Of a stretch of DNA of 64,000 bases, positions 33,085 through 63,066 are shown one piece after another. The stretch's first letter is position 1; every line of letters starts with the position of its first letter. This DNA comes from Escherichia phage EF202P1, in the sequence record OP172796.1; one strand, written 5' to 3'. The translations under genes were made by a program, and so were the position numbers. The notes beneath the pieces were generated by a model that worked only from the letters and a program-made list of their open reading frames with translations, was not told the DNA's origin and ran no database searches.

Positions 33085-34125
33085 ATGGAGAAGTATACGC
33101 TAACAAAACTTCCCGATTCAGTTACACATGTCTTTATTGACTCTGATAGTATTGCCTATAAAGGTGCTTGTGTAGTTGAGAAAGCAAAATATAAGTATGT
33201 CAATAAACTCACAGCAGAAGAATCTGAACCATTTGAGAATGCAAAAGATGCTGCAAGATGGTTAGCAGACCAGAGAATCCTTGTGGAAGAACTTGGCCTG
33301 ACATTTGATGAAGATGAATGGGAAAGACAGACTTGGAAAGAAGCTAAGAGTGAAAAAGAAGCTATCATGGCTACTCAGCAGGTTCTTCAGGAATGGCTTA
33401 AGGTTGTTGGTAAAGAAAGAACTTGGGTAGGTTACTTAACAGAGAAAGGTGTACATAAACATAAAGATATTAAAGGTCTTGAGCACCAATATCAAGGTAA
33501 CCGTAAAGAGGCTGTCACACCAACACACTTAGTTGCTTGTCGTGAATATCTTCTATCAAGACCAGAGTTCAAGCTCTTAAAGGGAGGCTTCGAAGCCGAT
33601 TCCATCGTAATTGCTAAAGCTGAAAAGATGGGTAAGAAGGCTGCTCTTATGAGTATTGACAAAGACCTTCGACAAGCTGAAGGGACTTATTGTATTGATA
33701 TGACTTATGAAAAGTCACCACTAATTTTTATTGCTGATAATAATGTTGGTGATATCTGGGATTGTCCTATCAAATCAAAACCAAAAGCTGCAAAAACTGT
33801 TGGTGTAGGTTTTAAATTTTTGTGTTATCAGGCTGTTGCTGGAGATAATGCAGACAACTACTTCGGCCTTAAAGGTGCTGGCAAAGTAGCTGTGATGAAT
33901 GCTTTAGATGGTAAAGAGACCTATAAAGAGTGTCTTGACGCTATCTATGAACTCTATGCTAAAAAAGAGTCTTACACCTATGTGTCATGGGATGGACAGA
34001 CTGTCACAAAGACACCATTAGAACTAATGGAACAGCATTTCTGGATAGCATATCAAGAGAGAAATCCAAAAGATAATTTCTCTTTTAAGAAATATAATTG
34101 GGAGCCGTGTATGAATGAAGATTAA
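33085..34125 (+). CDS. 5'-3' exonuclease / flap endonuclease
   Basis: N-terminal acidic catalytic cluster (FIDSDSIAY) and helix-hairpin-helix GDNADNYFGLKGAGKVA. Confidence 0.7.
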   Translation: MEKYTLTKLPDSVTHVFIDSDSIAYKGACVVEKAKYKYVNKLTAEESEPFENAKDAARWLADQRILVEELGLTFDEDEWERQTWKEAKSEKEAIMATQQVLQEWLKVVGKERTWVGYLTEKGVHKHKDIKGLEHQYQGNRKEAVTPTHLVACREYLLSRPEFKLLKGGFEADSIVIAKAEKMGKKAALMSIDKDLRQAEGTYCIDMTYEKSPLIFIADNNVGDIWDCPIKSKPKAAKTVGVGFKFLCYQAVAGDNADNYFGLKGAGKVAVMNALDGKETYKECLDAIYELYAKKESYTYVSWDGQTVTKTPLELMEQHFWIAYQERNPKDNFSFKKYNWEPCMNED

Positions 34126-34612
34126 AGGATTTGGCAATTGTCCCACCTATGGTCATTGGGTATCTTTATGTGGGGAAGTTGACCCCACTAAACATTTTGG
34201 TTTTGTCTATTTAGTACACTGTAAGAAAACCGGACAATACTATATTGGAAAGAAACAGCTTAATAGTGTGACCAAAAGAAAAGTTGCTGGTAAGACTCGG
34301 AAGAAGGTAGTCACTAAGGAAAGTGATTGGATGACTTATGAGACTTCTTCTGAGTATATTAAAAAAGATATTGAGAGTTTTGGAAAAGAGTTTTTTGACT
34401 TTTACATTATTCAAACCTACTACACAAAAGGTGGTCTAGTTTATGGTGAAGCAAACCTTCAACATAAATTTGATGTAATGACAAAAAGGATTGACTCTAA
34501 GCTCAGACTCTTCTACAATGCCAATATTGCAGCAATTAAGTTTATTACTAAAGAAACTTATGAAGATGCTGAAAAAAGAATCCATAAGGTAATGAAAGCA
34601 AACTGTGCTTGA
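34115..34612 (+). CDS. GIY-YIG family nuclease
   Basis: FGFVYLVHCKKTGQYYIGKK matches GIY-x10-YIG motif. Confidence 0.5.
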   Translation: MKIKGFGNCPTYGHWVSLCGEVDPTKHFGFVYLVHCKKTGQYYIGKKQLNSVTKRKVAGKTRKKVVTKESDWMTYETSSEYIKKDIESFGKEFFDFYIIQTYYTKGGLVYGEANLQHKFDVMTKRIDSKLRLFYNANIAAIKFITKETYEDAEKRIHKVMKANCA

Positions 34613-34633: not shown

Positions 34634-34864
34634 ATGTTTAACAAAAGTAAAGCTGTGGGTCATGTAGCAAAGGTTGACAGCAAGATTGAAGAACTTGAGC
34701 GCATTCTTGCAAATGCCAGAGAGTCAATAATTAAAGAAGTTGAAGCTGTTGAGTCTCAAATGCAGCACCTAATGCTTAAACGTCAAGAGTTACGTGAGCA
34801 TCTGGAATATATTGAAACACGAGAGCTAAAAGTTAACAGATTTTTAAGGAGTCCAAATGTTTAA
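34634..34864 (+). CDS. small coiled-coil protein
   Basis: ORF with GAGAGAGAA RBS. Confidence 0.3.
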   Translation: MFNKSKAVGHVAKVDSKIEELERILANARESIIKEVEAVESQMQHLMLKRQELREHLEYIETRELKVNRFLRSPNV

Positions 34865-35612
34865 CTCAAGAGAAGCAGTAAAAAACTGGAATCTTCGTTG
34901 TGGAAACACTCAAAAGCAACCTTACAGTGATGAGTATTGGGAATCTTTAAAATCCCAGTCTCTGTGTATGCTTGAAGAAGCAAAAGAGCTTGTAAAAGCA
35001 ATTGAAGAGAAAGACCCCATTGAGACACTGGATGCTCAGGCAGATTTGCAATATGTTCTTGATGGTCTGATTTATCTGTCACAACATGACCATAATGGTG
35101 CTATGAAAGCTGTTTGCCATAATAATGACCTGAAGTACACAGATGACTATGAAGAAGCTTTAAAGCGTCTTGCAGATGTTGAGAAGCGTACTGGTCAAGA
35201 GTGTATCATCAGAATGTCAGTGGTTGATGGTAAAGAGTGGTATGCGATTGTCCGTGCAGCCGATGGGAAGATTATGAAGCAATCAAATCTCCCTAAAGTA
35301 CAGCTTGGTGAATACATTGTAGAGCTTGAAAGCCAAGAACTTTTTGTGGTAGTATCTGAGACATGCGTTATCTGCAAAGGTATTGTAGATAGCTTAAAGG
35401 ATTTGGGTGTAGATGGTTTTGTAGAAGTTAATCCAATTACCTCTAAAGCAGATAAAGATTTCTGTAAAGAGAATGGACTATGGATTGCAGATATTGTCTA
35501 CTACGATGGTGAGCAGTTCCATGTAACCTCATACCCGAAACTGAATTATGATGCTAATAACCTGAAGTGCTGGTTAAAAGGGGTTGGTTATAATGGATTC
35601 ACAGAACATTAA
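34857..35612 (+). CDS. hypothetical protein, possible MazG-like NTP pyrophosphohydrolase N-domain plus CxxC C-domain
   Basis: EEAKELVKAIEEKDPIETLDAQADLQYVLDGL region is MazG-like; CVIC motif in C-terminal half; weak. Confidence 0.3.
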   Translation: MFNSREAVKNWNLRCGNTQKQPYSDEYWESLKSQSLCMLEEAKELVKAIEEKDPIETLDAQADLQYVLDGLIYLSQHDHNGAMKAVCHNNDLKYTDDYEEALKRLADVEKRTGQECIIRMSVVDGKEWYAIVRAADGKIMKQSNLPKVQLGEYIVELESQELFVVVSETCVICKGIVDSLKDLGVDGFVEVNPITSKADKDFCKENGLWIADIVYYDGEQFHVTSYPKLNYDANNLKCWLKGVGYNGFTEH

Positions 35613-40418: not shown

Positions 40419-42563
40419 ATGAACAAAGTACAGATTATTAAAAAGAATGGCTCACTTGAAGAACCTGATATCAAAAAAGTTTTAGCAGCAGTAACTAAGT
40501 CAGCTAACAGGGTTGGGTATAAAGAACTTCCCCCAGATGTTACCCAAGCTCTTGAGTCAGCATTTATGAGGATTCTGGTGAAGTCCACTAAGCAGAATAA
40601 TTTGCTCATCTCGGTAAATGACATTCACAGTATTGTTGAGGGTGCTTTGGCAGAAGTCAATCACGAGATTTATGAGTCTTACTCAACATACAGAAATTAC
40701 CGTAAAGAGGTTGCTCAAAATTGGGATGAGCTTTACCAAAAGACCAGAGACACACTCTTCTTAGGTGACCGTGAAAATGCTAACTTTGACAGCAGTTTAA
40801 TTTCTACAAAAGGTTCAATTATTCGTGGCTATCTGACTAAAGAAATCTTTAAACAATACCATTTAACACCAGAGGAACTCGAAGCCATTGAAAAAGGGTT
40901 TATCTACATCCATGACTTAAGAGACCTAATTTTTGGTGGTATCAACTGTTGCCTGTTTGACATCGGTAAAGTACTGAAAGGTGGCTTTGAAATGTCTGGT
41001 ATCGAATACTGTGAACCGAAATCTGTACTGTCATCCTTACAGGTTATCGGTGATGTAGTTCTTTCAGCAACTGCACAGCAATTTGGTGGTTTTACTTTAG
41101 CAGAGATTGATAAGGTGCTTGTACCGTATGCTAAGAAGTCTCTACGCTATCATGCTGAGAAAGCAGCATCTTACGGTATTCCTAAAGAACATTACCACAA
41201 TTATGTCATGGAGCAGCTACAGCTTGAATTAACTCAAGGCTTCCAGTCACTAGAGATGAAGCTAAATACTGTACCTTGTAGCCGTGGTGATTTCGCATTC
41301 ACAACTTTAACATTTGGTTTACTTGACTCAGATATGTCTAATGAAGACAACCGACTACAATACATGATTGCAAACACTATTCTTGATGTTCGCATGAATG
41401 GACAAGGTAAGAGCAAGAAGCCTGTTGTATTCCCTAAACTGGTTTATATTCATGACCAGAAGAGACACGATGAGAATATCTGTCAAGGTCAACTGTACAG
41501 TAAAGCTATTGAGTGTTGCTCTAAAGCAATGTATCCAGATTTCTTAAGCGTCTCTGGTCATGGTGCTGTAGCAGAAGCTTTTGAGCGTTCTGGCAAGGTA
41601 ATTTCACCGATGGGTTGCAGAGCCTTCTTATCTCCATATCTTAATGAGGATGGGGAAGAGTTCTATGTTGGTCGTGCTAACATTGGTGCTGTATCTTTGA
41701 ACTTGCCAATGATTTACCAGTATTCTAAAGAGAATGGTTTAGATTTCTGGAAAGAGCTTGATAAGTACCTAGAGATGATTCGCAGCTTCCACAAGAAACG
41801 CTACGAAATGATTGCTAATATGCCAGCAAGTTCTAACCCTCTTGCATTCACACAAGGTGGTCTGTACAAAGGGACTAAGAAACCTACTGACAAGGTTGGT
41901 TGGGATATCGTGAAGTCCTTCACAGCTTCTTTTGGGGTTACTGCTCTTGATGAGTTGTCTGTTCTTGCTGAAGGTAAACGACTTCATGAAGTTGGAAGCT
42001 ATAGTTTTGCATACGATGTTCTGGCATACATTAACATGAAAACTGAAGAGTTTAAGAACGAAGATGGCTTCTTGTATGCGGTATATGGCACTCCAGCAGA
42101 ATCACTTTGTGGAACTCAGTTAAAACAGTTCAGGGATATGTTTGGCGTTATTAAAGGTGTCTCTGACAAGGAATATTTTACAAACAGTTTCCATATGAAT
42201 GTTGCAGCAGATATCTCACCATTTGAGAAGCAGGACTTAGAAGAGCCATTCTTCCATATCTGTAGAGGCGGCAGAATCCAGTATGTGAGGGTAGCTAACC
42301 CAGAAAACTTACCAGCACTTAAAAGTTGTATTACAAGAGGGATGTTGAAGGGTTTTTATCAGGGACTTAACTTTGACTTAGCAACCTGCGAACATTGTGG
42401 CAACAGACCAAAGGCTGATGTTGAAGAATGTGAGGTTTGCCATTCACATGACATCTCTGTGATTAACAGAGTGTGTGGGTATCTTGGGTGGACTAAGATT
42501 AAAGGTGAATCCCGAATGAATGATGCAAAAATTGCTGAGATTCGTGACAGGGTTTCTATGTAA
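40419..42563 (+). CDS. nrdD: anaerobic ribonucleoside-triphosphate reductase (class III)
   Basis: 714 aa, C-terminal Cys cluster and glycyl-radical region (CEHCG...CEVC...RVCGYLG). Confidence 0.9.
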   Translation: MNKVQIIKKNGSLEEPDIKKVLAAVTKSANRVGYKELPPDVTQALESAFMRILVKSTKQNNLLISVNDIHSIVEGALAEVNHEIYESYSTYRNYRKEVAQNWDELYQKTRDTLFLGDRENANFDSSLISTKGSIIRGYLTKEIFKQYHLTPEELEAIEKGFIYIHDLRDLIFGGINCCLFDIGKVLKGGFEMSGIEYCEPKSVLSSLQVIGDVVLSATAQQFGGFTLAEIDKVLVPYAKKSLRYHAEKAASYGIPKEHYHNYVMEQLQLELTQGFQSLEMKLNTVPCSRGDFAFTTLTFGLLDSDMSNEDNRLQYMIANTILDVRMNGQGKSKKPVVFPKLVYIHDQKRHDENICQGQLYSKAIECCSKAMYPDFLSVSGHGAVAEAFERSGKVISPMGCRAFLSPYLNEDGEEFYVGRANIGAVSLNLPMIYQYSKENGLDFWKELDKYLEMIRSFHKKRYEMIANMPASSNPLAFTQGGLYKGTKKPTDKVGWDIVKSFTASFGVTALDELSVLAEGKRLHEVGSYSFAYDVLAYINMKTEEFKNEDGFLYAVYGTPAESLCGTQLKQFRDMFGVIKGVSDKEYFTNSFHMNVAADISPFEKQDLEEPFFHICRGGRIQYVRVANPENLPALKSCITRGMLKGFYQGLNFDLATCEHCGNRPKADVEECEVCHSHDISVINRVCGYLGWTKIKGESRMNDAKIAEIRDRVSM

Positions 42564-44646: not shown

Positions 44647-44659
44647 GAATCTATGATTA

Positions 44660-44688
44660 GGGAACTGTAAAGGTTCCCTTTTTTATTT
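44660..44688 (+). terminator. intrinsic terminator
   Basis: GGGAAC-TGTAAAG-GTTCCC then TTTTTT. Confidence 0.7.
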
Positions 44689-44698: not shown

Positions 44699-45214
44699 AT
44701 GTACCTGTCAAACCTGAAACGTTCGGCTGCAATGTCAGTGTTAAGGCTCAGCTTTGAGGAACGTCAAGAGTTCATTGACTCCCACCAATACGACCCTTCT
44801 AACTCAAATCACATGATTCTCTGGAATCGTGATAACTTCCGTGAAAGAGCACTTGTCCGTTATTACCCACACTACACAATAGATAACCTGTATGAATGGT
44901 GTGTTGTGAAGAACACTATTGCAACACTTAACAATCTTTGCAGGTATACAGGCAAGCAAACATTTACACTAGGTCACCACAAGCCTGTTACAAAAGGTGG
45001 TGAACATCACTGTGCAAACTGGTTTATCCAAACTAAAGCTGATAACCAGAAGCAAGGAGATAGACTCCTAAGCATCCCTAAGATGACCTATGAAGAGCAA
45101 GAGAAATATATCAAAAATAATATGCCAGATGTGCTTGACAACAACTATACAGATTTGGCAATATCTCTCCTGTTGAAGTTTGAGACAGTTTATAGGGCAA
45201 CTTACAATGGCTAA
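44699..45214 (+). CDS. HNH endonuclease
   Basis: HNH motif LGHHKPVTKGGEHHCANWFIQTKADNQKQGD. Confidence 0.7.
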   Translation: MYLSNLKRSAAMSVLRLSFEERQEFIDSHQYDPSNSNHMILWNRDNFRERALVRYYPHYTIDNLYEWCVVKNTIATLNNLCRYTGKQTFTLGHHKPVTKGGEHHCANWFIQTKADNQKQGDRLLSIPKMTYEEQEKYIKNNMPDVLDNNYTDLAISLLLKFETVYRATYNG

Positions 45215-45485
45215 AGCAGATTGGGAAATAAAAGACCTAATAAGTGATGCTGGAAATGGTTGTGAGATGTATATGATTCGTGGTCATGTACCAGACCCAT
45301 TAGCTCTTGAGATGATTGACCATCACACAAATGGATTCTACAAAGAACTAGGTGAACCAAATGTTGAACGCACTTGGACAAAACCAGTACCAGATAGCAC
45401 AGGCAACTGTTCAGTCCTCTATCACATTGTGAATCCACAAAAATGCAAAACAGCTATGGCTGTGACATTCGTAACTTTTGATTGA
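45207..45485 (+). CDS. hypothetical protein
   Basis: ORF overlapping HNH 3' end. Confidence 0.35.
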   Translation: MAKADWEIKDLISDAGNGCEMYMIRGHVPDPLALEMIDHHTNGFYKELGEPNVERTWTKPVPDSTGNCSVLYHIVNPQKCKTAMAVTFVTFD

Positions 45486-45497
45486 GAGAGAAAAACT

Positions 45498-46379
45498 ATG
45501 AAAACATCTATCCGTGTTATAATTCATTCACCGACAAAAGGGTCTCATGAAGAAGAGTTTAACATCATCCAGTTCCCTTCTGGTGAGATTGGTGGACACT
45601 TTTCACAAGAGCTTGTTGACTTTACTGCTCACGCAGCATCATCCATCAACAATGTGATTATGATTGTAAAAGGTTATGATAAAGACACATTGTTTGCTGT
45701 GGCACTTGCTAAAGAAGCAATTGATGATTTAGTTCCTCATGAATATGCCTTAAAGACTGTCATCTTTTACTACTTACCAAATGCACGATATGACCGTCAC
45801 ATGTTTAAAGGTGATGCAGCAGCTTTGAAGGTTTTTGCTAAACAGGTTAATGCAATGGGGTTTGGTGCGGTCTGTGCAGTTGACCCTCACAGTTATGTGC
45901 CAGATAACTTGTTTAACTGCTTCCAAAGTATTCCTCAAAATGAAATTGCAGTCCACTATGCAAATGACCCACTGGTTGATTACTTAGTAGCCCCAGATGC
46001 AGGTGCTTCTAAGAAGATTGCAGAGACTGCTAAAGAGGTGGATAAACCATACATCACAATGTCTAAAGTACGTAACCTTCAGACTGGTGAAATTACTGGT
46101 ATGCGAATCCTTGATGATGTGGATTTGACAGATAAAACTGTCATGATTCTTGATGATATCTGTGATGGTGGTCGAACCTTCATAGAAGCAGCTAAACATC
46201 TTCGTGAAGCAGGTGCAAAGCGTGTGGAACTCTATGTAACACATGGTATCTTCTCTAAAGGTGTTGAAAACCTTCTTGACAATGGTATTGACCACATCTA
46301 CACTACAAACTCTTTAGGGGAAGCTAAAGACCGTGGTTTAACACATTATGGTCAAGTGACTGTAGCAAACCTTGATTAA
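45498..46379 (+). CDS. ribose-phosphate pyrophosphokinase family protein (PRPP synthetase-like; candidate ADP-ribose pyrophosphokinase Adps)
   Basis: PRPP-binding loop VMILDDICDGGRT and Prs-like fold; adjacent to NAMPT-like gene. Confidence 0.8.
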   Translation: MKTSIRVIIHSPTKGSHEEEFNIIQFPSGEIGGHFSQELVDFTAHAASSINNVIMIVKGYDKDTLFAVALAKEAIDDLVPHEYALKTVIFYYLPNARYDRHMFKGDAAALKVFAKQVNAMGFGAVCAVDPHSYVPDNLFNCFQSIPQNEIAVHYANDPLVDYLVAPDAGASKKIAETAKEVDKPYITMSKVRNLQTGEITGMRILDDVDLTDKTVMILDDICDGGRTFIEAAKHLREAGAKRVELYVTHGIFSKGVENLLDNGIDHIYTTNSLGEAKDRGLTHYGQVTVANLD

Positions 46380-46388
46380 AACTTTATA

Positions 46389-46410
46389 GGGGGCTTTTAA
46401 GCCCCATTTT
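46389..46410 (+). terminator. hairpin/terminator between Prs-like and NAMPT-like genes
   Basis: GGGGCT-TTTA-AGCCCC then ATTTT. Confidence 0.55.
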
Positions 46411-46426
46411 GAGAGAGATTAAAAAG

Positions 46427-48208
46427 ATGACTAAATCACTTTATGCAGTGCCAGCAGGTTTAAACGCAGATGCTTACAAATCTGGTCACATTTACCAGTA
46501 CCCTAGTGCAACAGAGTACTTAATGTTTAACCTGACACCACGTAGTGACAAATGGTTTAACAGTCCCTTAGCAATTGATGGTGTAGTTGCTTTTGGTATT
46601 CAACGTTTTGTTAAAGATTACTTGATAGACCACTGGAACGCCACCTTTTTTGAACGTGACAAAAAAGAAGCAATTGATGAAATCTTAGAAGTCATGAACG
46701 GTGTTCTGGGTAAAGATGCTATTGGTCGAGAGCATTGGGAAGCACTTCATGACTTGGGTTATCTACCAGTTGAAGTATACGCTGTAGAAGAAGGAACAGT
46801 TGTCCCTATGCGTGTACCAATGGTTGTCTTCCAGAACACTGTTTCAGGTTTCCATTGGGTAGCGGGGTATCTGGAAGATGCTTTCTCTGCTGAGATTTGG
46901 AAGGCTTGTACCATTGCAACTATTGCATTGCACTACAAACGTATCTGTAAGAAGTGGGCTGACCTTACTTGTGACAACGACTTGCATTTACCTTATCAGT
47001 GCCATGACTTTGCTATGCGTGGTATGTCCGGCTTTACTGATGACGCATTTAACGCTGTAGGCCACTTAACCAGCTTTAAAGGGACTGATAGCTTCCCTGC
47101 TGTATATACAGCTAAACGCATCTACGGTCAGTCCTACCCAATCTCTGATATTGGTAGCTCTGTACCAGCCACTGAACACTCTGTAATGTGTGCAAACATT
47201 GCTTGGGAAGGTGGTAATGAGTTGATTGAAGAAGAAAGACGCTTCAAAGGTGAGTTACAAACCTTCCGTCGCTTCTTAACAGAAACTTACCCAACTGGTA
47301 TTGCAAGTGTTGTTTCAGATACTTATAATTTCTGGAGAACTGTATCAGTCATATTGCCAGAACTCCGTAAAGAGATTATGGAACGAAATGGCAAACTGGT
47401 AATTCGTCCTGATTCTGGAGACCCTGTACATATTGTCACAGGTTATAAAGCAATTCACTTAGAGTGTGCTAAAAAGGCTTATTATGAACACCTAAGCAAG
47501 CTGGAAGCCAGCGACACAATGTTGAATGCTGTTCTGAACATGAAGCTTGAAAACATCAATTATGGTATTGCTGGATGGCTACTGTCAGAAGGCTATGAGA
47601 TGGTTGTTGACAGAGAAGACTTTGAAGTTGCTGATACAGTGATGTTGAAAAATGCTTATATGGTTGGTTCTGCAAACGTTGTAACACGTCCTGTAGCAGA
47701 GATTGATGGGGCTATTAAGACACTGTATAACATCTTTGGAGGGACTATCAACTCTAAAGGTTTTAAGGTACTGGATGAGCACATTGGCCTTATTTATGGT
47801 GACTCTATCACGTTGGAACGTGCAAACGAAATCCTGAAGCGTTTGTATGAAATGGGTTTTGCAAGCTCTAACGTAGTGTTTGGTGTAGGTTCTTACACTT
47901 ACCAGTACATGACTCGTGACACCTTTGCATTTGCTGTCAAAGCAACTCTTGCAAGCATTGGTGGTAAAGAGATTATGCTTGCAAAAGACCCTAAAACAGA
48001 TAGTGGTGTTAAGAAGTCTGCTTTTGGTGGTGTAGCACCTATGTGGGATGGCGATAAGATGAAAGCTGTAGATGGCTATGGATTCCAGAGCTTTGCAGAT
48101 GTGCTTGAACATCCAGCTTGTGCTTTACGTTTAGTCTTTAGTGACTCTGAGCAGTTTGGTTACACAACTCTTGGTGATATTCGAAATAATATTGACAAGC
48201 AGCTTTAA
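46427..48208 (+). CDS. nicotinamide phosphoribosyltransferase family protein (NAMPT-like; candidate Namat)
   Basis: About 593 aa, NAMPT-like throughout; GAGAGAG RBS; own terminators either side of the pair. Confidence 0.8.
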   Translation: MTKSLYAVPAGLNADAYKSGHIYQYPSATEYLMFNLTPRSDKWFNSPLAIDGVVAFGIQRFVKDYLIDHWNATFFERDKKEAIDEILEVMNGVLGKDAIGREHWEALHDLGYLPVEVYAVEEGTVVPMRVPMVVFQNTVSGFHWVAGYLEDAFSAEIWKACTIATIALHYKRICKKWADLTCDNDLHLPYQCHDFAMRGMSGFTDDAFNAVGHLTSFKGTDSFPAVYTAKRIYGQSYPISDIGSSVPATEHSVMCANIAWEGGNELIEEERRFKGELQTFRRFLTETYPTGIASVVSDTYNFWRTVSVILPELRKEIMERNGKLVIRPDSGDPVHIVTGYKAIHLECAKKAYYEHLSKLEASDTMLNAVLNMKLENINYGIAGWLLSEGYEMVVDREDFEVADTVMLKNAYMVGSANVVTRPVAEIDGAIKTLYNIFGGTINSKGFKVLDEHIGLIYGDSITLERANEILKRLYEMGFASSNVVFGVGSYTYQYMTRDTFAFAVKATLASIGGKEIMLAKDPKTDSGVKKSAFGGVAPMWDGDKMKAVDGYGFQSFADVLEHPACALRLVFSDSEQFGYTTLGDIRNNIDKQL

Positions 48209-48222
48209 AAGTATATGATAAG

Positions 48223-48246
48223 AGGCTCCTACGGGAGCCTTTTTAA
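48223..48246 (+). terminator. intrinsic terminator after NAMPT-like gene
   Basis: AGGCTCC-TACG-GGAGCCT then TTTT. Confidence 0.7.
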
Positions 48247-56343: not shown

Positions 56344-57129
56344 ATGGGTATTGTAAAAATCATCAATGGGGATATCTTCTCCGCATTTGATAAAGGTAAG
56401 TTTGATATCATTGGTCACGGTTGCAACTGTATGAACTTAATGGGTGCAGGTATCGCTGACAAGATTTCTAAACTTTACCCAAAAGCATATGAGACCGATA
56501 CAGAAGTTTATCTGTATGCAGGTGGCATAGGTCACAAACCCTGTGAAAATTTACTAGGGAATTTCTCTGTAGCACGTTTAGAACAAGGCCGTATAGCTAA
56601 CCTTTACACTCAGCTTAAGACTGGTAAAGATGCCCGATACAGTGCTTTAGAGTCATCTTTGAAACAACTTAACAGATACTGTGAAGTTAATCAGTTGAAG
56701 AAAGTTGGTTTACCTATGATTGGTGCAGGTATTGGTGGACTTGACCCTCAAGCCGTCACAGTTATCATCAATCAGGTGATGAAGAGTGTAGATGTCTATC
56801 TATATGTCTATGAAGGAGAGATGTACCACAAGTTACGCTCAGGTTGGAAGAACTACTGTGAACCAGAATACTTTGCAGGTGTAGTAACGTTCACAGATAA
56901 CGCAGTTACCCTCTTCAGACGAAGAAAAGGTAAGATACATCAAAGTAACCCTCCGGTTGAAAAGATGTCTCTAAGTAACGCTCTAGTTACCCACCTGTCG
57001 AAGAGCAATCACAGAATTGCCGTGACATTTGGTAGCGATGCAGACACCTACATCTATGCAAGAACTGATGAGAATGTCGAGGAAATTTTCTCATCACCGG
57101 AAGTAACCTTCTTAGACGCAAAGAACTAA
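56344..57129 (+). CDS. macro-domain protein (ADP-ribose binding/hydrolase) with C-terminal extension
   Basis: N-terminal macro signature INGDIFSAF...FDIIGHGCNCMNLMGAGIA and later LPMIGAGIGGLDP. Confidence 0.65.
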   Translation: MGIVKIINGDIFSAFDKGKFDIIGHGCNCMNLMGAGIADKISKLYPKAYETDTEVYLYAGGIGHKPCENLLGNFSVARLEQGRIANLYTQLKTGKDARYSALESSLKQLNRYCEVNQLKKVGLPMIGAGIGGLDPQAVTVIINQVMKSVDVYLYVYEGEMYHKLRSGWKNYCEPEYFAGVVTFTDNAVTLFRRRKGKIHQSNPPVEKMSLSNALVTHLSKSNHRIAVTFGSDADTYIYARTDENVEEIFSSPEVTFLDAKN

Positions 57130-57635: not shown

Positions 57636-57842
57636 ATGCTTTACAGTCGTGAATTGATGGTTACAACTAACGTTAACACAAAGGTAAAACGTTTTTATAT
57701 GCAAGTGTGCGGCGCATGGCGTAGAATATCAGAAGCTGACTATTGCAACTATGTAGAAACGGCTATTAATTCTAATTGCTACCTTACAAGAAACACTAAG
57801 AAATTTACAAGGCAGACAGCGATTTACTACTACGACAAATAA
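57636..57842 (+). CDS. small hypothetical protein (array gene 1)
   Basis: ATG after RBS CTGGAGAATCAAA; sigma70-like promoter upstream. Confidence 0.4.
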   Translation: MLYSRELMVTTNVNTKVKRFYMQVCGAWRRISEADYCNYVETAINSNCYLTRNTKKFTRQTAIYYYDK

Positions 57843-57928
57843 AGTACTTTACAGGGGGCTTAAAAGCTGATATCTTAAGCCCCAGATAAAGAGCTTTACC
57901 ACTCAATCCTAAATTGGAGAACTTAAAA
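57843..57928 (+). promoter_or_regulatory. class-A cassette (TTTACA - hairpin - TATCTT/TAAAGT - conserved leader - RBS)
   Basis: AAGTACTTTACAGGGGGCTT...AAGCCCCAGATAAAGAGCTTTACC...GGAGA...ATG. Confidence 0.5.
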
Positions 57929-58309
57929 ATGGCATACCGTGCACCTAAATTCATCAACAAAGACAACTTTCGCAACGCACTGGAGAAGTCACTTGATGAA
58001 AATTTTAAAGGTAACATTATCGTTGTTCACGCATTCAATTTTAAGTATGATGTAAACGGGAATAGAATCAACCATTACACAGCAACCATGTTAGATGGTA
58101 CGCTATCAAGTGAAAAAGCTGTACTGAATGCACTTGCAGGACGTGGTAAAAACCTGATAAGATGCGATAAGAGACGTTATCAGGGTGGCGCATATGGTTA
58201 TGATGATGCTGTTTATCATCTTGAAAATATGGGCTATTCAGTGGAAAAAGCTGGAGTGTCTCAAATAATCGGCAGTGACGGCTATGTGACAATTTTCAAA
58301 ATTAACTAA
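57929..58309 (+). CDS. small hypothetical protein (array gene 2)
   Basis: ATG 8 nt after GGAGA RBS of conserved cassette. Confidence 0.45.
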   Translation: MAYRAPKFINKDNFRNALEKSLDENFKGNIIVVHAFNFKYDVNGNRINHYTATMLDGTLSSEKAVLNALAGRGKNLIRCDKRRYQGGAYGYDDAVYHLENMGYSVEKAGVSQIIGSDGYVTIFKIN

Positions 58310-58311
58310 TA

Positions 58312-58397
58312 AAGTACTTTACAGGGGGCTTATAGTTCGATAAAGTAAGCCCCAGATAAAGAGCTTTACCACTAAATCCTAAATTGGAGATTCAAAA
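58312..58397 (+). promoter_or_regulatory. class-A cassette
   Basis: Near-identical copy; hairpin GGGGCTTATAGTTCGATAAAGTAAGCCCC. Confidence 0.5.
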
Positions 58398-58655
58398 ATG
58401 GCTATTATTAAAAACGTTGTAATTCCTGCAAAAACTCGTGATGACGCTCGCATCATGGCGAAAAAGTTAGGCGGAAAAGTGGTTGACAACGGAAAACAAA
58501 CTGCTGTAAGGTGGGGCGTGAAAGCTGATAAGCAACTAACCTTAAAACGCAGTTCAAACAACCTTTTTAAAGGTGTAAAATCACTCGGTAAAGTGAACGT
58601 GTTTACCAAAAAAGGCTATAAAATGCACTTATCATTAACTGGCAATTTAATCTGA
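58398..58655 (+). CDS. small hypothetical basic protein (array gene 3)
   Basis: Cassette-preceded ORF. Confidence 0.45.
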   Translation: MAIIKNVVIPAKTRDDARIMAKKLGGKVVDNGKQTAVRWGVKADKQLTLKRSSNNLFKGVKSLGKVNVFTKKGYKMHLSLTGNLI

Positions 58656-58745
58656 TAAAGTACTTTACAGGGGGCTTAAAAGCTGATATCTTAAGCCCCA
58701 GATAAAGAGCTTTACCACTCAATCCTTAAACTAGGAGATTCAAAA
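58656..58745 (+). promoter_or_regulatory. class-A cassette
   Basis: Near-identical copy. Confidence 0.5.
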
Positions 58746-59258
58746 ATGAAAACTGTAGACGCTACCTTTGAAGTTGTAAAAGAAAAATTTTCCATAATTT
58801 ATGAGGCTGTCAATTGCTACGAAGCAAGCCATAATCTTGATAATTGGAAGTTTACAGATGACCATCAAGGCGGTGTGACTATTAAAAACCCCAACTGTCA
58901 GCGTAATGGATTTAAATATGCAATTCCTTTACATTACAGCCTTAAACAGCTTTCAATTGACTATGCAAAACAAGGCCGGGAAAATCCATCGAAAGAGGCT
59001 TACATCAGCTTACAGAAAGAACTAGAAAGAGATTTAGAGGCTTCAGAATATAACATCGCCGCGAAAGTTGTAGATGCAAACGGTAGCACGGTTTTAGAGA
59101 GTTTTTATATTGGTTATGCTTTCGATTGGTGCTACAGTGACGGCGATGATTTAGATGACAGACTAAAAGAGGAAGTGAACAACGCAGACGCAGAATCTGA
59201 AGTATTAGAACGCTTGGAAGCATTAAAAGATTCAGTGATGAATATCTTTAAGAACTAA
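58746..59258 (+). CDS. hypothetical acidic protein (array gene 4)
   Basis: Cassette-preceded ORF. Confidence 0.45.
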   Translation: MKTVDATFEVVKEKFSIIYEAVNCYEASHNLDNWKFTDDHQGGVTIKNPNCQRNGFKYAIPLHYSLKQLSIDYAKQGRENPSKEAYISLQKELERDLEASEYNIAAKVVDANGSTVLESFYIGYAFDWCYSDGDDLDDRLKEEVNNADAESEVLERLEALKDSVMNIFKN

Positions 59259-59349
59259 ATAGATTTCTTTACACGGGGCTAACAAGCGGATATGATAGCC
59301 CCAGATAAAGAGATTTATCAAATTAACCCTTAAACTAGGAGATTCTAAA
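59259..59349 (+). promoter_or_regulatory. class-A cassette (divergent copy, TTTACA-17-TATGAT)
   Basis: Hairpin sequence differs (CGGGGCTA...TAGCCCC) but hexamers and spacing kept. Confidence 0.5.
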
Positions 59350-59646
59350 ATGAAATTATCAAATAAAGTTAGGGAAAACCTTAGCAAATTACTCAATAAA
59401 ATTGATTTTATCGAGACATCAAGGAATAGTCATGATGTTATGGAATGGTTACACGGCAAAATAAAAGGCCGTCGCGTCGTGATTTGCTTATGGAATAGTT
59501 GCAGGGAATATAAAAAGCCTGTATTGCAAATTAATGTTTATGATGATACTTTTAAAAGTCCTGTAAAGTCTAAAAGCGATTTATTAGAATCCTATGAGAT
59601 AACTGTAAATGGCAAAGTATCATGTAAAGAGGAAGCACCATGTTAA
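59350..59646 (+). CDS. small hypothetical protein (array gene 5)
   Basis: Cassette-preceded ORF. Confidence 0.45.
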   Translation: MKLSNKVRENLSKLLNKIDFIETSRNSHDVMEWLHGKIKGRRVVICLWNSCREYKKPVLQINVYDDTFKSPVKSKSDLLESYEITVNGKVSCKEEAPC

Positions 59647-59972
59647 TGATGGGTATCACTGCAATCATTGCCATTATAGCACTGTACAAGGCTTATAGCG
59701 CATATAATTTGGCAAGTAAGGCAATCACGCAACAGGTTAATAATAGCCTTGTAATGAGCTTTCTGGAGCGTTTAAGTGATGAACAAATAAAACGGTTAGA
59801 AATGAGCTTCAGATTTCAATCAAAAACTTATCAAATCAGCGACATTTTCAAAGATAATTTTCAGCTTGTCGATGATTATAACTCTCTGATAAATGCTTTA
59901 AATATCAGTGACTTAAAAGACTATTACACTGTAATTGTCCAAGAACTGAACAAACGAAAAAATTTCTCTTGA
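59640..59972 (+). CDS. small membrane protein (array gene 6)
   Basis: N-terminal TM helix MLMMGITAIIAIIALY; overlaps upstream ORF. Confidence 0.4.
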   Translation: MLMMGITAIIAIIALYKAYSAYNLASKAITQQVNNSLVMSFLERLSDEQIKRLEMSFRFQSKTYQISDIFKDNFQLVDDYNSLINALNISDLKDYYTVIVQELNKRKNFS

Positions 59973-60062
59973 TTTTAGTTTTAAAAACAAGTAAATTACT
60001 AATCAACGGGGAGGGAATGACCTTCCCCACTAAGTAAAGTCCTTAAACTAGGAGATTCAAAA
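59969..60062 (+). promoter_or_regulatory. class-B cassette (TTGATT-17-TAAATT promoter, 5' hairpin GGGGAGG/CCTTCCCC, RBS)
   Basis: Promoter hexamers, then AATCAACGGGGAGGGAATGACCTTCCCCACTAAGTAAAGTCCTTAAACTAGGAGATTC..ATG. Confidence 0.55.
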
Positions 60063-60335
60063 ATGTACACTACTAACAACGGTCGCACCTTAAACGTAAC
60101 CCTACGTCACTATGTGAACGGTGTAATGCACTTCGAGGATTTACAAGCTGAACAGCACATTTTGGATTGGCAACTTGCAGGATTCCAAAAAACTGCTACC
60201 GGATACGGGAAAAAGATTCCAACTAGCTGGAAAGTATACTACGAAGGCCGTTTGCGTAGAATTTATCAAGATGTATGCGGCAATAGCGCATCAAGTTACA
60301 TCATAGTAAAAGGCAAAAAGCTGCATTTAGTATAA
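60063..60335 (+). CDS. small hypothetical protein (array gene 7)
   Basis: Cassette-preceded ORF. Confidence 0.45.
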   Translation: MYTTNNGRTLNVTLRHYVNGVMHFEDLQAEQHILDWQLAGFQKTATGYGKKIPTSWKVYYEGRLRRIYQDVCGNSASSYIIVKGKKLHLV

Positions 60336-60420
60336 AGTACTTTACAAGGGGCTTATAGTTCGATAAAGTAAGCCCCAGATAAAGAGCTTTACCACTAAAT
60401 CCTAAATTGGAGATTCAAAA
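60336..60420 (+). promoter_or_regulatory. class-A cassette
   Basis: Near-identical copy. Confidence 0.5.
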
Positions 60421-60825
60421 ATGGCTATTAATAATCGTGAGTTATCTATCTTAAAAGCACGTTTGACCGTCAACCGGATTAATGTTATCACATCATCAGC
60501 ACCAGATGAAACACTGCAAAACATTATTGGGAAGATTCAAAGTATTATCTTAGACGTTGAAAGCGTAAAAAACTCATTGGCTGACGTTGCAGCCGGTATC
60601 ACGCTAGACGGTGCACAACATGAGATGGCCGACATGTTAGGCAAATCAAAGGTAATGAATAAAGAGCTTGATTTAAAGATGTTCCGATTTGCTGTTAAAG
60701 TGTGGCTATCCGTCGAGTATGACGCTAATTTTGCAATCGCTGATTTCTTTGCCACTTGGTTACAACGTAACTTAACAAATCATGATTTCCGTGATGTCTG
60801 TGATGCAATCTACGCAGAACTTTAA
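60421..60825 (+). CDS. small hypothetical protein (array gene 8)
   Basis: Cassette-preceded ORF. Confidence 0.45.
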   Translation: MAINNRELSILKARLTVNRINVITSSAPDETLQNIIGKIQSIILDVESVKNSLADVAAGITLDGAQHEMADMLGKSKVMNKELDLKMFRFAVKVWLSVEYDANFAIADFFATWLQRNLTNHDFRDVCDAIYAEL

Positions 60826-60832
60826 AAAGATG

Positions 60833-60925
60833 TTGACACTGATTTTTAGATAGATTAAATTACTCATCAACGGGGAGGCAATAGCCTCCCTACTAAGTAA
60901 AGTCCTTAAACTAGGAGATTCAAAA
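60833..60925 (+). promoter_or_regulatory. class-B cassette (TTGACA-17-TAAATT)
   Basis: As above, hairpin variant GGGGAGGCAATAGCCTCCC. Confidence 0.55.
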
Positions 60926-61123
60926 ATGGCTATTATTAACGGCTTAAACATTGAAACAACACACATCAAAGATATCAAAGTTGGTGATGTAGTCCTTTCC
61001 CACGGCGTAGAAAAAACTGTCACTGCAAAGGATATCAAAGAGGATTCTTTCATGGGTAGAACTCTCTTCGGTGATTCTTATTGCTTAGGTTATCTTGCAG
61101 TTTTAAAAGTTGTCAAAAATTAA
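60926..61123 (+). CDS. small hypothetical protein (array gene 9)
   Basis: Cassette-preceded ORF. Confidence 0.4.
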   Translation: MAIINGLNIETTHIKDIKVGDVVLSHGVEKTVTAKDIKEDSFMGRTLFGDSYCLGYLAVLKVVKN

Positions 61124-61215
61124 GTAATAAAGTGCTTTACAAGGGGCTTAAAAAGTTGGTATCTTAAGCCCCAGATAAAGAGCTTTACACAGTCCTTAAA
61201 CTAGGAGATTAAAAA
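61124..61215 (+). promoter_or_regulatory. class-A cassette
   Basis: Near-identical copy. Confidence 0.5.
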
Positions 61216-61464
61216 ATGATGAACTATTTCAATGTCCCTGATACCTGCCGACTATTGACACAAGAAGAAAACTTGGGTAAACCTTTTCTTTACCACATAC
61301 CAGACAACACACCAAAAACTTATAGTTACAATGTCAACCGTTTTACCGCATACGCTGCAAAGAACGGTTATAAGTTGGTCACTCAAAAAGTAATGCTGGT
61401 TACAACCGCTGATGAGATTCCTACAGTTGCAGTTAAACTAATTTTCTCAAAAAAAGTTAAATAA
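61216..61464 (+). CDS. small hypothetical protein (array gene 10)
   Basis: Cassette-preceded ORF. Confidence 0.45.
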   Translation: MMNYFNVPDTCRLLTQEENLGKPFLYHIPDNTPKTYSYNVNRFTAYAAKNGYKLVTQKVMLVTTADEIPTVAVKLIFSKKVK

Positions 61465-61549
61465 AGTACTTTACAAGGGGCTTATAGTTCGATAAAGTAA
61501 GCCCCAGATAAAGAGCTTTACCACTAAATCCTAAACTGGAGATTCAAAA
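61465..61549 (+). promoter_or_regulatory. class-A cassette
   Basis: Near-identical copy. Confidence 0.5.
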
Positions 61550-62113
61550 ATGAAATGCTATCACGGAACTACCCTCAAAAACTTTGTAAACCTGCTGAAT
61601 GGTGGCGACAAGCCGGAAGGAATCTGGAACTGCTCATACATGGATGATTGTTTCTACGTTTACCCAATGAACAAGATTATCAAAACGGAATGTCTGGAAG
61701 ATGAGGAAGATTCTTACATTCGTGAACGCTGCATTCAAAACGCTTTAGAATCTGGGCTTATTACGGCAGCTTTCCAAATGGAAACGCAGGATGTAATTGT
61801 CATTGAGATGGATATCCCAGAGGAAGAGCTAGAGGATGATTATTCTTGTGACAACATGAGCGATATCGCCAGCTTTACCGGACACTTTGATAAAAATTGG
61901 ATTATTGGCCTTCACTCGACGAAATTTAGTGCGATGTATGCACCTTTCTTTGTACCAGATGCAACTAACCGCAATTTAGGCTATGTTGACGATGATTTGT
62001 TAAGTATGGCGAAAATTGTACAGAATAGCGGTGATAGTTCCGTGTTTTGTGACTTGCTGGATAAAATCACGGCAAACATCACAGAGTGCAATTTAAAAGA
62101 CTTTTTAGGTTAA
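61550..62113 (+). CDS. hypothetical strongly acidic protein (array gene 11)
   Basis: Cassette-preceded ORF; Asp/Glu-rich (EDEEDSY, EEELEDDYSCD). Confidence 0.45.
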   Translation: MKCYHGTTLKNFVNLLNGGDKPEGIWNCSYMDDCFYVYPMNKIIKTECLEDEEDSYIRERCIQNALESGLITAAFQMETQDVIVIEMDIPEEELEDDYSCDNMSDIASFTGHFDKNWIIGLHSTKFSAMYAPFFVPDATNRNLGYVDDDLLSMAKIVQNSGDSSVFCDLLDKITANITECNLKDFLG

Positions 62114-62176
62114 TCAGTACAAAGACACCAACTTCCAACTTAAGGCCCATACAGGGCCATTTAAAGGGCTTAAATC

Positions 62177-62410
62177 ATGCTTACAACCGTTTATCTTATC
62201 CTTTCTATTTGTAATGGTCATTCATGTGATTTTAAAGGGCTTGAGGAGTTTACAGGGAGTAAAGAAAATGCTATTCAAGTTTGCCAGATAGCAAGACAAG
62301 ACTATCCCGCCAGTGATGATATTCAATGTTACTTTAAGACAGAAGACAGCGACGGCGTTTATTTTGACAGTGTCGATGGTCAATATGAAATTATCATTGA
62401 AAAAGACTAG
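62177..62410 (+). CDS. small hypothetical protein (array gene 12)
   Basis: ORF after GGCCC hairpin. Confidence 0.4.
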   Translation: MLTTVYLILSICNGHSCDFKGLEEFTGSKENAIQVCQIARQDYPASDDIQCYFKTEDSDGVYFDSVDGQYEIIIEKD

Positions 62411-62501
62411 ACAAGCCTGATAAAAGTCTGTAAATTGTCAATCAACGGGGAGGGAATGACCTTCCCCACTAAATAAAGTCCTTAAACTAGGAGATTCTAA
62501 A
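62408..62501 (+). promoter_or_regulatory. class-B cassette (TAGACA-17-TAAATT)
   Basis: As above. Confidence 0.5.
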
Positions 62502-62843: not shown

Positions 62844-62973
62844 TCAATAACTTACAAAAAACTTTTAAAAAGATGTTGACAATCCCTCTTGACATTGGTA
62901 ACTTTGTTCGAGGGGGGTTTATCTAAAAGGGATTAACTTAAAAGATTCTTTATAGATAGACTTAAAAAATTGC

Positions 62974-63066
62974 TTGCAATCAGATATCAAAACAAGTAAA
63001 TTACTCATCAACGGGGAGGCAATAACCTCCCTACTAAGTAAAGTCCTTAAACTAGGAGATTCTAAA
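62974..63066 (+). promoter_or_regulatory. class-B cassette (TTGCAA-17-TAAATT)
   Basis: As above. Confidence 0.5.

What the first reader, a model, noticed from the sequence alone, without database searches (positions are those of the whole stretch)
45498..48208. Adjacent PRPP-synthetase-like and NAMPT-like genes: candidate NARP1-type NAD+ reconstitution (anti-defence) pathway
A ribose-phosphate pyrophosphokinase-family gene (PRPP-binding loop VMILDDICDGGRT) sits directly upstream of a NAMPT-family gene, and the pair is bracketed by hairpin terminators. No NMN adenylyltransferase (NatV/NadM-like) gene is visible in this window. Classical salvage needs NAMPT plus NMNAT, whereas the phage NARP1 pathway uses exactly a Prs-like ADP-ribose pyrophosphokinase (Adps) plus a NAMPT-like nicotinamide ADP-ribose transferase (Namat) to rebuild NAD+ from ADP-ribose and nicotinamide after depletion by Thoeris, DSR, SIR2-HerA or similar defences. 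Such genes are routinely annotated as plain Prs and NAMPT.
Basis: partly seen in the sequence, partly recalled or inferred. Interest (0 to 1): 0.8.

Follow-up and report, generated by a model that had tools for sequence, protein, structure and literature searches.

The report
Known phage NAD+ rebuilding operon (NARP1)

Summary
Two adjacent plus-strand genes encode a 293-aa Prs-family protein (45498-46379) and a 593-aa NAMPT-family protein (ATG 46427-48208; the mechanical ORF starts at TTG 46409).

The window is a Felixounavirus, collinear with Escherichia phage JohannRWettstein (Bas63). Genes 79-80 of Bas63 are the founding example of NARP1 (Adps + Namat). The window proteins are 77% (Adps) and 98% (Namat) identical to Bas63 gp79 and gp80 over their full length.

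The Namat carries the published ADPR-PP selectivity-clamp signature: GSYTYQYMTRD in the helix element and SDKW in the loop. It also keeps the catalytic core. A predicted structure matches the solved Namat crystal structures best.

No NMN adenylyltransferase was found in the window or in the complete Bas63 genome.

The "bracketed by terminators" detail is only partly right. One terminator follows namat. The other strong hairpin lies between the two genes. The nearest upstream terminator is 0.8 kb away, with two small ORFs in between.

Verdict: interpretation supported, system already known, low interest.

Side observations:
- A Macro-domain protein 8 kb downstream is related to the NARP1-associated phosphatase Adpp.
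- The Adps N-terminal domain is a divergent allele.
- The Namat has a folded insertion of about 85 aa.

The parts
45498..46379 (+). adps: ADP-ribose pyrophosphokinase (ADPR-PP synthetase), Prs-family, 293 aa
   Evidence: It is 77% identical over all 293 aa to Bas63 gp79. The N-terminal 180 aa are 66% identical and the C-terminal 113 aa are 96% identical. It is 27% identical to E. coli Prs. In NCBIfam it passes only the broad TIGR01251 subfamily (118.6 vs 113 bits) and fails every Prs equivalog cut-off. The flexible-loop Lys190/Arg192 and the RYDR and DDICDGGRT motifs are present.
46390..46405 (+). Intergenic hairpin between adps and namat (GGGGCU-UUUA-AGCCCC, followed by AUUUUG)
   Evidence: Centroid -11.4 kcal/mol, z -2.2. 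It was not called a terminator because the T-run has only 4 T. The stem is conserved in Bas63 and HMD-P10 while the loop differs. It is replaced by an HNH endonuclease gene in phage Z31.
46427..48208 (+). namat: nicotinamide ADP-ribose transferase, NAMPT-family, 593 aa (mechanical ORF starts at TTG 46409)
   Evidence: It is 98% identical (581/593) to Bas63 gp80. The SCH motif GSYTYQYMTRD lies at residues 488-498 and the SCL residues are S-D-K-W. The catalytic core F195, R198, D221, H251, R327 and D329 is invariant in the alignment. The AF2 model has pLDDT 92, and its best PDB matches are the Namat crystal structures 9w5x/9w5w with target-normalised TM-score (TMt) 0.95.
48220..48243 (+). Intrinsic terminator-like hairpin downstream of namat
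   Evidence: 10-bp stem (5 G-C pairs) plus a T-run; -16.6 kcal/mol, z -2.5.
44699..45485 (+). Two small co-directional ORFs (44699-45214, 171 aa; 45207-45485, 92 aa) between the upstream terminator-like site and adps; possibly co-transcribed, function unknown
   Evidence: They are tightly packed or overlapping with adps, and no hairpin separates them from it. They are homologous to Bas63 gp77 and gp78. Pfam gives only a sub-threshold DUF7167 hit. The published deletion removed only genes 79-80, so a role in NARP1 is not implied.
44659..44679 (+). Nearest upstream terminator-like hairpin
   Evidence: 8-bp stem plus a T-run; z -1.9.
56344..57129 (+). Macro-domain protein (261 aa), a candidate accessory only: related to the NARP1-associated ADPR-1''-phosphate phosphatase Adpp, but 8 kb from the operon
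   Evidence: Pfam Macro 1.2e-7, above the gathering score. It is 27-35% identical to Adpp of Vibrio phage Gary and Pseudomonas phage PN09 (pairwise E 1e-13 and 1e-17). His25, equivalent to the mutated Gary H24, is conserved. It also resembles the DarG macrodomain and T4-type Macro proteins. Its function was not determined.

Best explanation
The two genes are the NARP1 NAD+ reconstitution pathway of a Felixounavirus. When a host defence such as SIR2-HerA, DSR1/2, type I Thoeris, SEFIR or Kongming cleaves NAD+ into ADP-ribose and nicotinamide, Adps (45498-46379) uses ATP to pyrophosphorylate the terminal ribose of ADP-ribose. This gives ADPR-pyrophosphate. Namat (46427-48208) then displaces the pyrophosphate with nicotinamide and regenerates NAD+ directly, without an NMN intermediate or an NMN adenylyltransferase.

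Shown here: orthology to the experimentally characterised Bas63 pair, the Namat selectivity-clamp signature, intact catalytic residues, conserved synteny, and absence of an NMNAT.

Inferred from the literature, not shown for this sequence: the two enzymatic reactions and the anti-defence phenotype.
For: - The window is collinear with Bas63 over 7.5-70.2 kb of that genome.
- Adps is 77% and Namat 98% identical to Bas63 gp79 and gp80, full length and without gaps.
- Bas63 delta79-80 loses the ability to overcome SIR2-HerA. ADPR-PP appears only with the wild-type phage plus the defence system. The effect persists in a delta-pncC delta-nadR host (10.1101/2024.02.11.579819).
- The purified SPbetaL1 homologues perform ADPR + ATP -> ADPR-PP and ADPR-PP + nicotinamide -> NAD+.
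[quoted passage not shown] The loop residues SDKW are identical to Bas63 (PMC12774641).
- A KVP40-type NadV (NARP2 type) has GMGGGLLQQLDRD at the same place, which serves as a negative control.
- The predicted structure (pLDDT 92) matches the Namat crystal structures best (TMt 0.95), ahead of HdNadV and human NAMPT.
- Adps fails all NCBIfam Prs equivalog cut-offs.
- Codon differences against Bas63 namat are 87 synonymous to 12 non-synonymous, indicating purifying selection.
- No NMNAT was found.
Against: - No experiment exists on this particular sequence.
- The N-terminal 180 residues of this Adps are only 66% identical to the Bas63 protein, so a specificity difference cannot be formally excluded.
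- The biochemistry was done on the more distant SPbetaL1 enzymes, because Bas63 Adps did not purify.
- Namat enzymes retain PRPP -> NMN activity in vitro.
- About 23 kb of this phage's genome lies outside the window and could not be checked for an NMNAT.
Confidence: 0.93

Rival explanations
1. Conventional salvage. The first enzyme is a true PRPP synthetase and the second a true NadV/NAMPT that makes NMN. The host NadR or NadD completes NAD+ synthesis, as in a NARP2-like route with the NMNAT step outsourced.
For: Pfam, PHROG, NCBIfam and GenBank all use these names. Namat can make NMN from PRPP in vitro.
Against: In Bas63 the pair still restores NAD+ in a delta-pncC delta-nadR host, and ADPR-PP, not NMN, is the intermediate. 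The purified SPbetaL1 Adps homologue gave no measurable product in the Prs-type control reaction, but made ADPR-PP from ADPR and ATP. The Namat clamp motif is present here and absent from a KVP40-type NadV. Adps fails all Prs equivalog cut-offs and is 27% identical to E. coli Prs.
Confidence: 0.04
2. An extended, dispersed three-enzyme pathway (NARP1-AP in trans). The Macro-domain protein at 56344-57129 dephosphorylates ADPR-1''-phosphate made by aRES-type defences and feeds ADPR into Adps/Namat, although it is not in the operon.
For: The Macro domain passes the Pfam cut-off. It is homologous to characterised Adpp (27-35% identity, E 1e-13 to 1e-17) and keeps the His whose mutation (H24A) was tested for Adpp. 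The aRES study scanned only two genes either side of NARP1, and its table contains no Escherichia phage. The protein is conserved in Bas63 (97%) and in other Felixounaviruses.
Against: The gene is 8 kb and about 15 genes away. The same Macro family is common in phages that include T4-type ones (that these lack NARP1 is from my own knowledge, not tested here), so a NARP1-independent role is likely. It resembles the DarG macrodomain (DNA ADP-ribosyl glycohydrolase) about equally well, and OARD1. It has an unexplained C-terminal extension of about 100 aa.
Confidence: 0.2
3. Decayed or non-functional remnant of the pathway.
For: None found.
Against: Both ORFs are full length with no gaps against Bas63. 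The catalytic residues are intact. Substitutions in namat are strongly biased to synonymous changes (87:12). The AF2 model has high confidence.
Confidence: 0.01

Closest known systems
NARP1 of Escherichia phage JohannRWettstein (Bas63), genes bas63_0079 (Adps) and bas63_0080 (Namat), MZ501086
   Same: Same genus (Felixounavirus) and same genomic position, between nrdG and rIIA. Same gene order and lengths (293 and 593 aa). Namat is 98% and Adps 77% identical. The clamp residues are identical and the intergenic hairpin stem is the same.
   Different: The N-terminal 180 aa of Adps and the 3' end of the preceding small ORF form a divergent mosaic block (64-82% DNA identity over about 45200-46000; 66% protein identity). 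The window carries the commoner of two Felixounavirus alleles: about 154 records are at least 90% identical to it, and 94 records, including Bas63, are at 60-80%.
NARP1 of Bacillus phage SPbetaL1 (biochemically and structurally characterised; Namat PDB 9w5w/9w5x)
   Same: Same two-enzyme logic, same Namat catalytic core and the same SCH motif type (GSFTYQYNTRD vs GSYTYQYMTRD). Fold match TMt 0.95.
   Different: Only 37-38% identity. The window Namat has two insertions absent from the 491-496-aa crystallised protein: about residues 256-275, and a confidently folded alpha/beta insertion at about 340-425. It uses Lys-Trp instead of Arg in the SCL loop.
NARP2 (NadV/Nampt + NatV/Nmnat) of Vibrio phage KVP40-type phages
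   Same: A NAMPT-family enzyme that helps the phage keep NAD+ up.
   Different: NARP2 needs a phage NMNAT and uses PRPP. No NMNAT was found here. The KVP40-type NadV lacks the aromatic clamp motif and is about 28% identical.
NARP1-AP (Adps-Adpp-Namat) of Vibrio phage Gary
   Same: Same Adps + Namat core. A homologous Macro-domain protein exists in this genome.
   Different: The Macro gene is not within the operon or its two flanking genes on either side. It is 8 kb downstream and carries an extra C-terminal region of about 100 aa.
Housekeeping class I PRPP synthetase (E. coli Prs) and bacterial or human NAMPT
   Same: Same folds and catalytic chemistry: PRT-type fold with a flexible-loop Lys/Arg for Prs, and a type II PRT fold with a phosphohistidine for NAMPT.
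   Different: 27% identity to E. coli Prs. RQDR is changed to RYDR and DTGGT to DGGRT, and the protein is shortened at both ends. It fails the Prs equivalog cut-offs. The Namat clamp is absent from NAMPT.

Membership tests
NARP1 (Adps + Namat) | Prs-family protein belonging to the phage Adps clade rather than to cellular Prs | tested here: met
   77% identity over the full length to Bas63 gp79, a defining member, against 27% to E. coli Prs. It fails all NCBIfam Prs equivalog cut-offs. No tree was built here.
NARP1 (Adps + Namat) | Namat homologue in the immediate vicinity of adps (the paper's criterion: within 10 genes) | tested here: met
   The genes are directly adjacent on the same strand, with a 47-nt gap. 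The synteny is conserved in at least 205 phage records.
NARP1 (Adps + Namat) | [quoted passage not shown] | tested here: met
   GSYTYQYMTRD at residues 488-498. Position phi-3 is Met rather than the usual Asn or Val, exactly as in Bas63. A KVP40-type NadV control has GMGGGLLQQLDRD.
NARP1 (Adps + Namat) | SCL loop supplying an adenine-stacking residue (third residue Arg/Lys/Tyr; if Lys or Tyr, the fourth residue stacks) | tested here: met
   TPR-S-D-K-W is identical to Bas63 Namat, which the paper cites as the Lys-type example. The stacking geometry itself was not modelled here.
NARP1 (Adps + Namat) | Intact NAMPT-like catalytic core (SPbetaL1 F189, R192, D215, catalytic His, R306, D308) | tested here: met
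   Window F195, R198, D221, H251, R327 and D329 are all invariant in a 30-sequence alignment.
NARP1 (Adps + Namat) | Adps catalytic flexible-loop lysine (SPbetaL1 K162 = B. subtilis Prs K197) | tested here: met
   K190 and R192 in MSKVRNLQTGE align with EKERDRTTGE of S. solfataricus Prs in the HMMER alignment. MAFFT against E. coli Prs places the Lys one column off, so the equivalence rests on the HMMER alignment. SPbetaL1 Adps was not aligned directly.
NARP1 (Adps + Namat) | No phage NMN adenylyltransferase needed or present | tested here: met
   No CTP_transf_like or Nudix hit in Pfam scans of 20 window ORFs in the non-structural part (16 unassigned, at least 130 aa) or of 10 unassigned Bas63 ORFs outside the window. 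None is annotated in Bas63. The roughly 23 kb of this phage outside the window could not be tested.
NARP1 (Adps + Namat) | Enzymology: ADPR + ATP -> ADPR-PP; ADPR-PP + nicotinamide -> NAD+; preference for ADPR-PP over PRPP | not testable with these tools
   Shown for the SPbetaL1 enzymes, and in vivo for Bas63. Inferred here by orthology.
NARP1 (Adps + Namat) | Counter-defence phenotype against NAD+-depleting systems | not testable with these tools
   Shown for Bas63 delta79-80 on SIR2-HerA, and for other NARP1 operons on Thoeris I, DSR1/2, SEFIR and Kongming.
NARP2 (Nampt + Nmnat) | Phage-encoded NMN adenylyltransferase accompanying the NAMPT-family gene | tested here: not met
   No NMNAT was found. 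The NAMPT-family protein has the Namat signature, not the Nampt one.
NARP1-AP (Adps + Adpp + Namat) | Macro-domain phosphatase within two genes of the NARP1 genes (the paper's criterion) | tested here: not met
   The flanking ORFs have no Macro or RyR domain. The only Macro-domain protein found among the ORFs scanned is at 56344-57129, 8 kb away.
Housekeeping PRPP synthetase (Prs) | Score above the curated cut-off of a Prs equivalog model | tested here: not met
   The best equivalog, NF002095, scores 104 bits against a cut-off of 296. Only the broad subfamily TIGR01251 is passed, at 118.6 vs 113.

The most novel reading that the evidence does not exclude
Felixounaviruses may run a dispersed three-enzyme version of the pathway. 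The Macro-domain protein at 56344-57129 is an Adpp homologue with an extra C-terminal region of about 100 aa, conserved in Bas63 as gp95. It would act in trans as the ADPR-1''-phosphate phosphatase and so extend NARP1 to aRES-type defences. This arrangement would have been missed by the published survey, which looked only two genes either side of NARP1.
Probability: 0.2. Interest if true: 0.4.

Novelty: already known. Interest (0 to 1): 0.15.

Why it matters
The result mainly confirms a correct call. A reader working from raw sequence recognised that a Prs + NAMPT pair without an NMNAT is NARP1, a phage counter-defence that rebuilds NAD+ after depletion by Thoeris, DSR, SIR2-HerA and similar systems.

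Its practical value is for annotation. More than 200 Felixounavirus records, and the NCBIfam model the Namat passes, still name these genes ribose-phosphate pyrophosphokinase and nicotin(amide/ate) phosphoribosyltransferase. The Namat motif GS[YF]x[YF]x[YF]xTRD gives a simple discriminator.

Nothing about the pair itself is new. The only leads with some novelty are the distant Adpp-like Macro gene and the two divergent alleles of the Adps N-terminal domain.

Tried and rejected
- I guessed the Bas63 accession. MZ501111 was Bas51 and MZ501080 was Bas02 before MZ501086 proved correct.
- I tried to obtain a KVP40-type NatV from the neighbourhood of a KVP40-like NadV (phage PVA8) to use as an NMNAT query. 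No NMNAT is adjacent there. I fetched E. coli nadD and nadR but did not use them as queries. I replaced this approach with Pfam scans of the unassigned ORFs.
- I looked for Macro or RyR accessory genes in the ORFs flanking the operon. None were found.
- I looked for a terminator immediately upstream of adps. None was found.
- I looked for a dedicated Adps or Namat model in NCBIfam. None exists.
- I looked for a solved Adps structure by sequence. The best hits are only ordinary Prs enzymes (best E 5e-18).
- I checked whether the aRES paper tested any Felixounavirus or BASEL phage. No mention was found (one search was a malformed query).
- I considered a tree to place the Macro protein among Adpp and T4-type Macro proteins. 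I rejected it because identities are about the same (34-35%) to both groups over about 155 residues, so it would not discriminate.
Full report
**Observation**

The window holds two adjacent plus-strand ORFs at the stated coordinates: 45498-46379 (293 aa) and 46409-48208 (599 aa from a TTG). Relatives annotate the second gene from the ATG at 46427 (593 aa). Both genes are preceded by the same GAGAGAGA-type ribosome-binding sequence.

- Gene 1 matches Pfam Pribosyltran and Pribosyl_synth, and PHROG 619 'ribose-phosphate pyrophosphokinase' (5e-97).
- Gene 2 matches Pfam NAPRTase and NAMPT_N, and PHROG 448 'nicotinamide phosphoribosyl transferase' (4.5e-202).

**Hairpins**

The 'bracketed by hairpin terminators' detail is only partly right.
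- A convincing terminator follows gene 2 (48220-48243).
- The second strong hairpin (46390-46405) lies between the two genes.
- Nothing significant folds immediately upstream of gene 1 (z -0.67).
- The nearest upstream terminator-like site is at 44659-44679, with two small co-directional ORFs in between.

**Where the window comes from**

Megablast places the locus in Felixounavirus (FelixO1-like myoviruses of Escherichia, Salmonella, Shigella and Citrobacter). 260 records match, 205 of them across most of the 3.7-kb query, and the best is 96.5% identical. Over 24 kb the best records are 93-95% identical, so the window is a typical but not previously deposited member.

It is collinear with positions 7.5-70.2 kb of Escherichia phage JohannRWettstein (Bas63, MZ501086).

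**What is known**

The paper that defined NARP1 started from genes 79-80 of Bas63 (bioRxiv 10.1101/2024.02.11.579819).
- Deleting the pair sensitises Bas63 to SIR2-HerA.
- NAD+ recovery persists in a delta-pncC delta-nadR host.
- ADPR-pyrophosphate appears only when the wild-type phage meets the defence system.
- The purified SPbetaL1 homologues catalyse ADPR + ATP -> ADPR-PP (Adps) and ADPR-PP + nicotinamide -> NAD+ (Namat). Namat prefers ADPR-PP over PRPP.

A later structural paper (PMC12774641) solved SPbetaL1 Namat. It defined a 'selectivity clamp' with two parts. [quoted passage not shown] The other is a variable loop that contributes a further stacking residue.

**Direct comparison**

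The window Namat is 581/593 (98%) identical to Bas63 gp80. The window Adps is 227/293 (77%) identical to Bas63 gp79. Both comparisons are over the full length and without gaps.

- The Namat has GSYTYQYMTRD at residues 488-498 and the loop TPR-SDKW, both identical to Bas63.
- A KVP40-type NadV (NARP2-type Nampt), used as a negative control, has GMGGGLLQQLDRD at that position.
- The catalytic-core residues F195, R198, D221, H251, R327 and D329 are invariant across a 30-sequence alignment.
- An AlphaFold2 model (pLDDT 92, pTM 0.90) matches the Namat crystal structures 9w5x/9w5w best (TM-score normalised to the target 0.95). Haemophilus NadV and human NAMPT follow.

Adps is 27% identical to E. coli Prs. 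It has RYDR for RQDR and DGGRT for DTGGT, keeps the flexible-loop Lys190/Arg192, and fails every NCBIfam Prs equivalog cut-off. It passes only the broad TIGR01251 subfamily.

Against Bas63, namat shows 87 synonymous and 12 non-synonymous codon differences, consistent with purifying selection.

**NMNAT**

Pfam scans covered 20 window ORFs in the non-structural part (16 of them unassigned ORFs of at least 130 aa). They also covered 10 unassigned ORFs from the part of Bas63 that lies beyond the window. They gave no cytidylyltransferase-like or Nudix hit. The Bas63 annotation lists none. The roughly 23 kb of this phage outside the window could not be examined.

**Conclusion on the finding**

This is NARP1, not conventional Prs + NadV salvage. 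It is also already known, since the pair is orthologous to the type example in the same genus.

All listed GenBank relatives use the Prs and NAMPT names. NCBIfam has no Adps or Namat model, and the Namat passes the 'nicotinate phosphoribosyltransferase' equivalog.

**Differences from the type example and other details**

(a) The block from about 45200 to 46000 covers the 3' end of the preceding small ORF and the N-terminal 180 residues of Adps. It is a divergent mosaic segment relative to Bas63: 64-82% DNA identity and 66% protein identity, against 96% for the C-terminal 113 residues. Across phage records, Adps falls into two Felixounavirus allele groups. About 154 records are at least 90% identical to the window, and 94 records, including Bas63, are at 60-80%. 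Namat is 95-99% identical in 209 records. The window's allele is therefore the commoner one, but not the one studied in vivo.

(b) The intergenic hairpin stem is conserved in Bas63 and HMD-P10 while the loop differs. In Z31-type relatives a 492-bp HNH endonuclease gene occupies exactly this intergenic position.

(c) Relative to the crystallised SPbetaL1 Namat (chains of 491-496 aa), the Felixounavirus Namat has two insertions, at about residues 256-275 and about 340-425. The latter is predicted as a confidently folded alpha/beta module with pLDDT 94-96. Its role is unknown, and the structural paper does not discuss an insertion in the text I searched.

**A lead outside the coordinates**

The NMNAT sweep found a Macro-domain protein at 56344-57129 (Pfam Macro 1.2e-7, above the gathering score). 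It is 97% identical to Bas63 gp95, annotated 'putative phosphatase'.

A 2026 preprint (10.64898/2026.01.28.702374) reports the following.
- aRES defences cleave NAD+ to nicotinamide and ADPR-1''-phosphate, which NARP1 cannot use.
- 15% of NARP1 phages carry a Macro-domain phosphatase, Adpp, in the operon; it restores ADPR.
- The survey scanned only two genes either side of NARP1, and its table has no Escherichia phage.

The window protein's first 160 residues are 27-35% identical to Adpp of Vibrio phage Gary and Pseudomonas phage PN09 (pairwise E 1e-13 and 1e-17). They keep the His equivalent to Gary H24, a residue mutated in that study.

Against this reading, the same Macro family is widespread in phages that include T4-type ones; that these lack NARP1 is from my own knowledge. 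The domain also resembles the DarG macrodomain and OARD1 about equally well. In addition, there is an unexplained C-terminal extension of about 100 aa. I rate 'Adpp acting in trans' at about 0.2.

**Verdict**

The system is already known, and interest is low (0.15).

Noticed in passing
window 56344-57129 (+): 261-aa Macro-domain protein, the homologue of Bas63 gp95 'putative phosphatase'. Its N-terminal 160 aa are homologous to the NARP1-associated ADPR-1''-phosphate phosphatase Adpp (27-35% identity, catalytic His conserved). They are equally similar to T4-type Macro proteins and to the DarG macrodomain. The C-terminal 100 aa or so have no match. The gene lies 8 kb downstream of NARP1, outside the two-gene window on either side used in the published NARP1-AP survey.
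   Followed up: partly
window 45200-46000: Mosaic block relative to Bas63, with 64-82% DNA identity against 90-99% on either side. It covers the N-terminal 180 aa of Adps (66% protein identity vs 96% for the C-terminal part). Felixounaviruses carry two Adps alleles, while Namat is nearly invariant.
   Followed up: partly
window 46390-46405; locus L009 1687-2178 (Shigella phage Z31): The adps-namat intergenic hairpin has a conserved stem and a variable loop in Bas63 and HMD-P10. In Z31-type relatives an HNH homing-endonuclease gene sits exactly in this intergenic space and replaces the hairpin.
   Followed up: partly
window 47444-47701 (Namat residues ~340-425) and 47192-47251 (residues ~256-275): Two insertions relative to the crystallised SPbetaL1 Namat (491-496 aa) and to enterobacterial chromosomal homologues. 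The larger one is predicted as a confidently folded alpha/beta module (pLDDT 94-96). Function unknown. It is shared by many phages of Gram-negative hosts.
   Followed up: partly
proteins P0069-P0119 (Klebsiella, Cronobacter, Kosakonia, Phytobacter chromosomes): Chromosomal 496-aa homologues on megabase contigs carry the Namat-type motif GS[YF]TYQYNTRD. This is consistent with the bacterial NARP1 reported in PMC12774641. Their neighbourhoods were not examined here.
   Followed up: no
window 57800-64000: Several families of 41-103-nt repeated intergenic cassettes, each with 5-6 copies. They contain G+C-rich hairpins (e.g. AGGGGGCTTA...TAAGCCCC, CGGGGAGGGAATGACCTTCCCC) followed by a conserved RBS and ATG, in front of small early genes. 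The NARP1 intergenic hairpin resembles the first type.
   Followed up: partly
window 20159-21385 (- strand ORFs 20280-20720 and 20723-21325): Two ORFs (146 and 200 aa) in a segment with no counterpart at this position in Bas63. Neither has a Pfam hit.
   Followed up: no
window 40419-42563: nrdD is uninterrupted here, whereas Bas63 nrdD is annotated as split (two joined pieces) with a homing-endonuclease gene inside. The window lacks about 740 bp relative to Bas63 at this point.
   Followed up: no
window 34115-34612 and 34857-35612: A SegE-type GIY-YIG homing endonuclease (Pfam 9e-28) and a MazG/PRA-PH-like pyrophosphohydrolase domain protein (8e-6) lie in the replication module.
   Followed up: no
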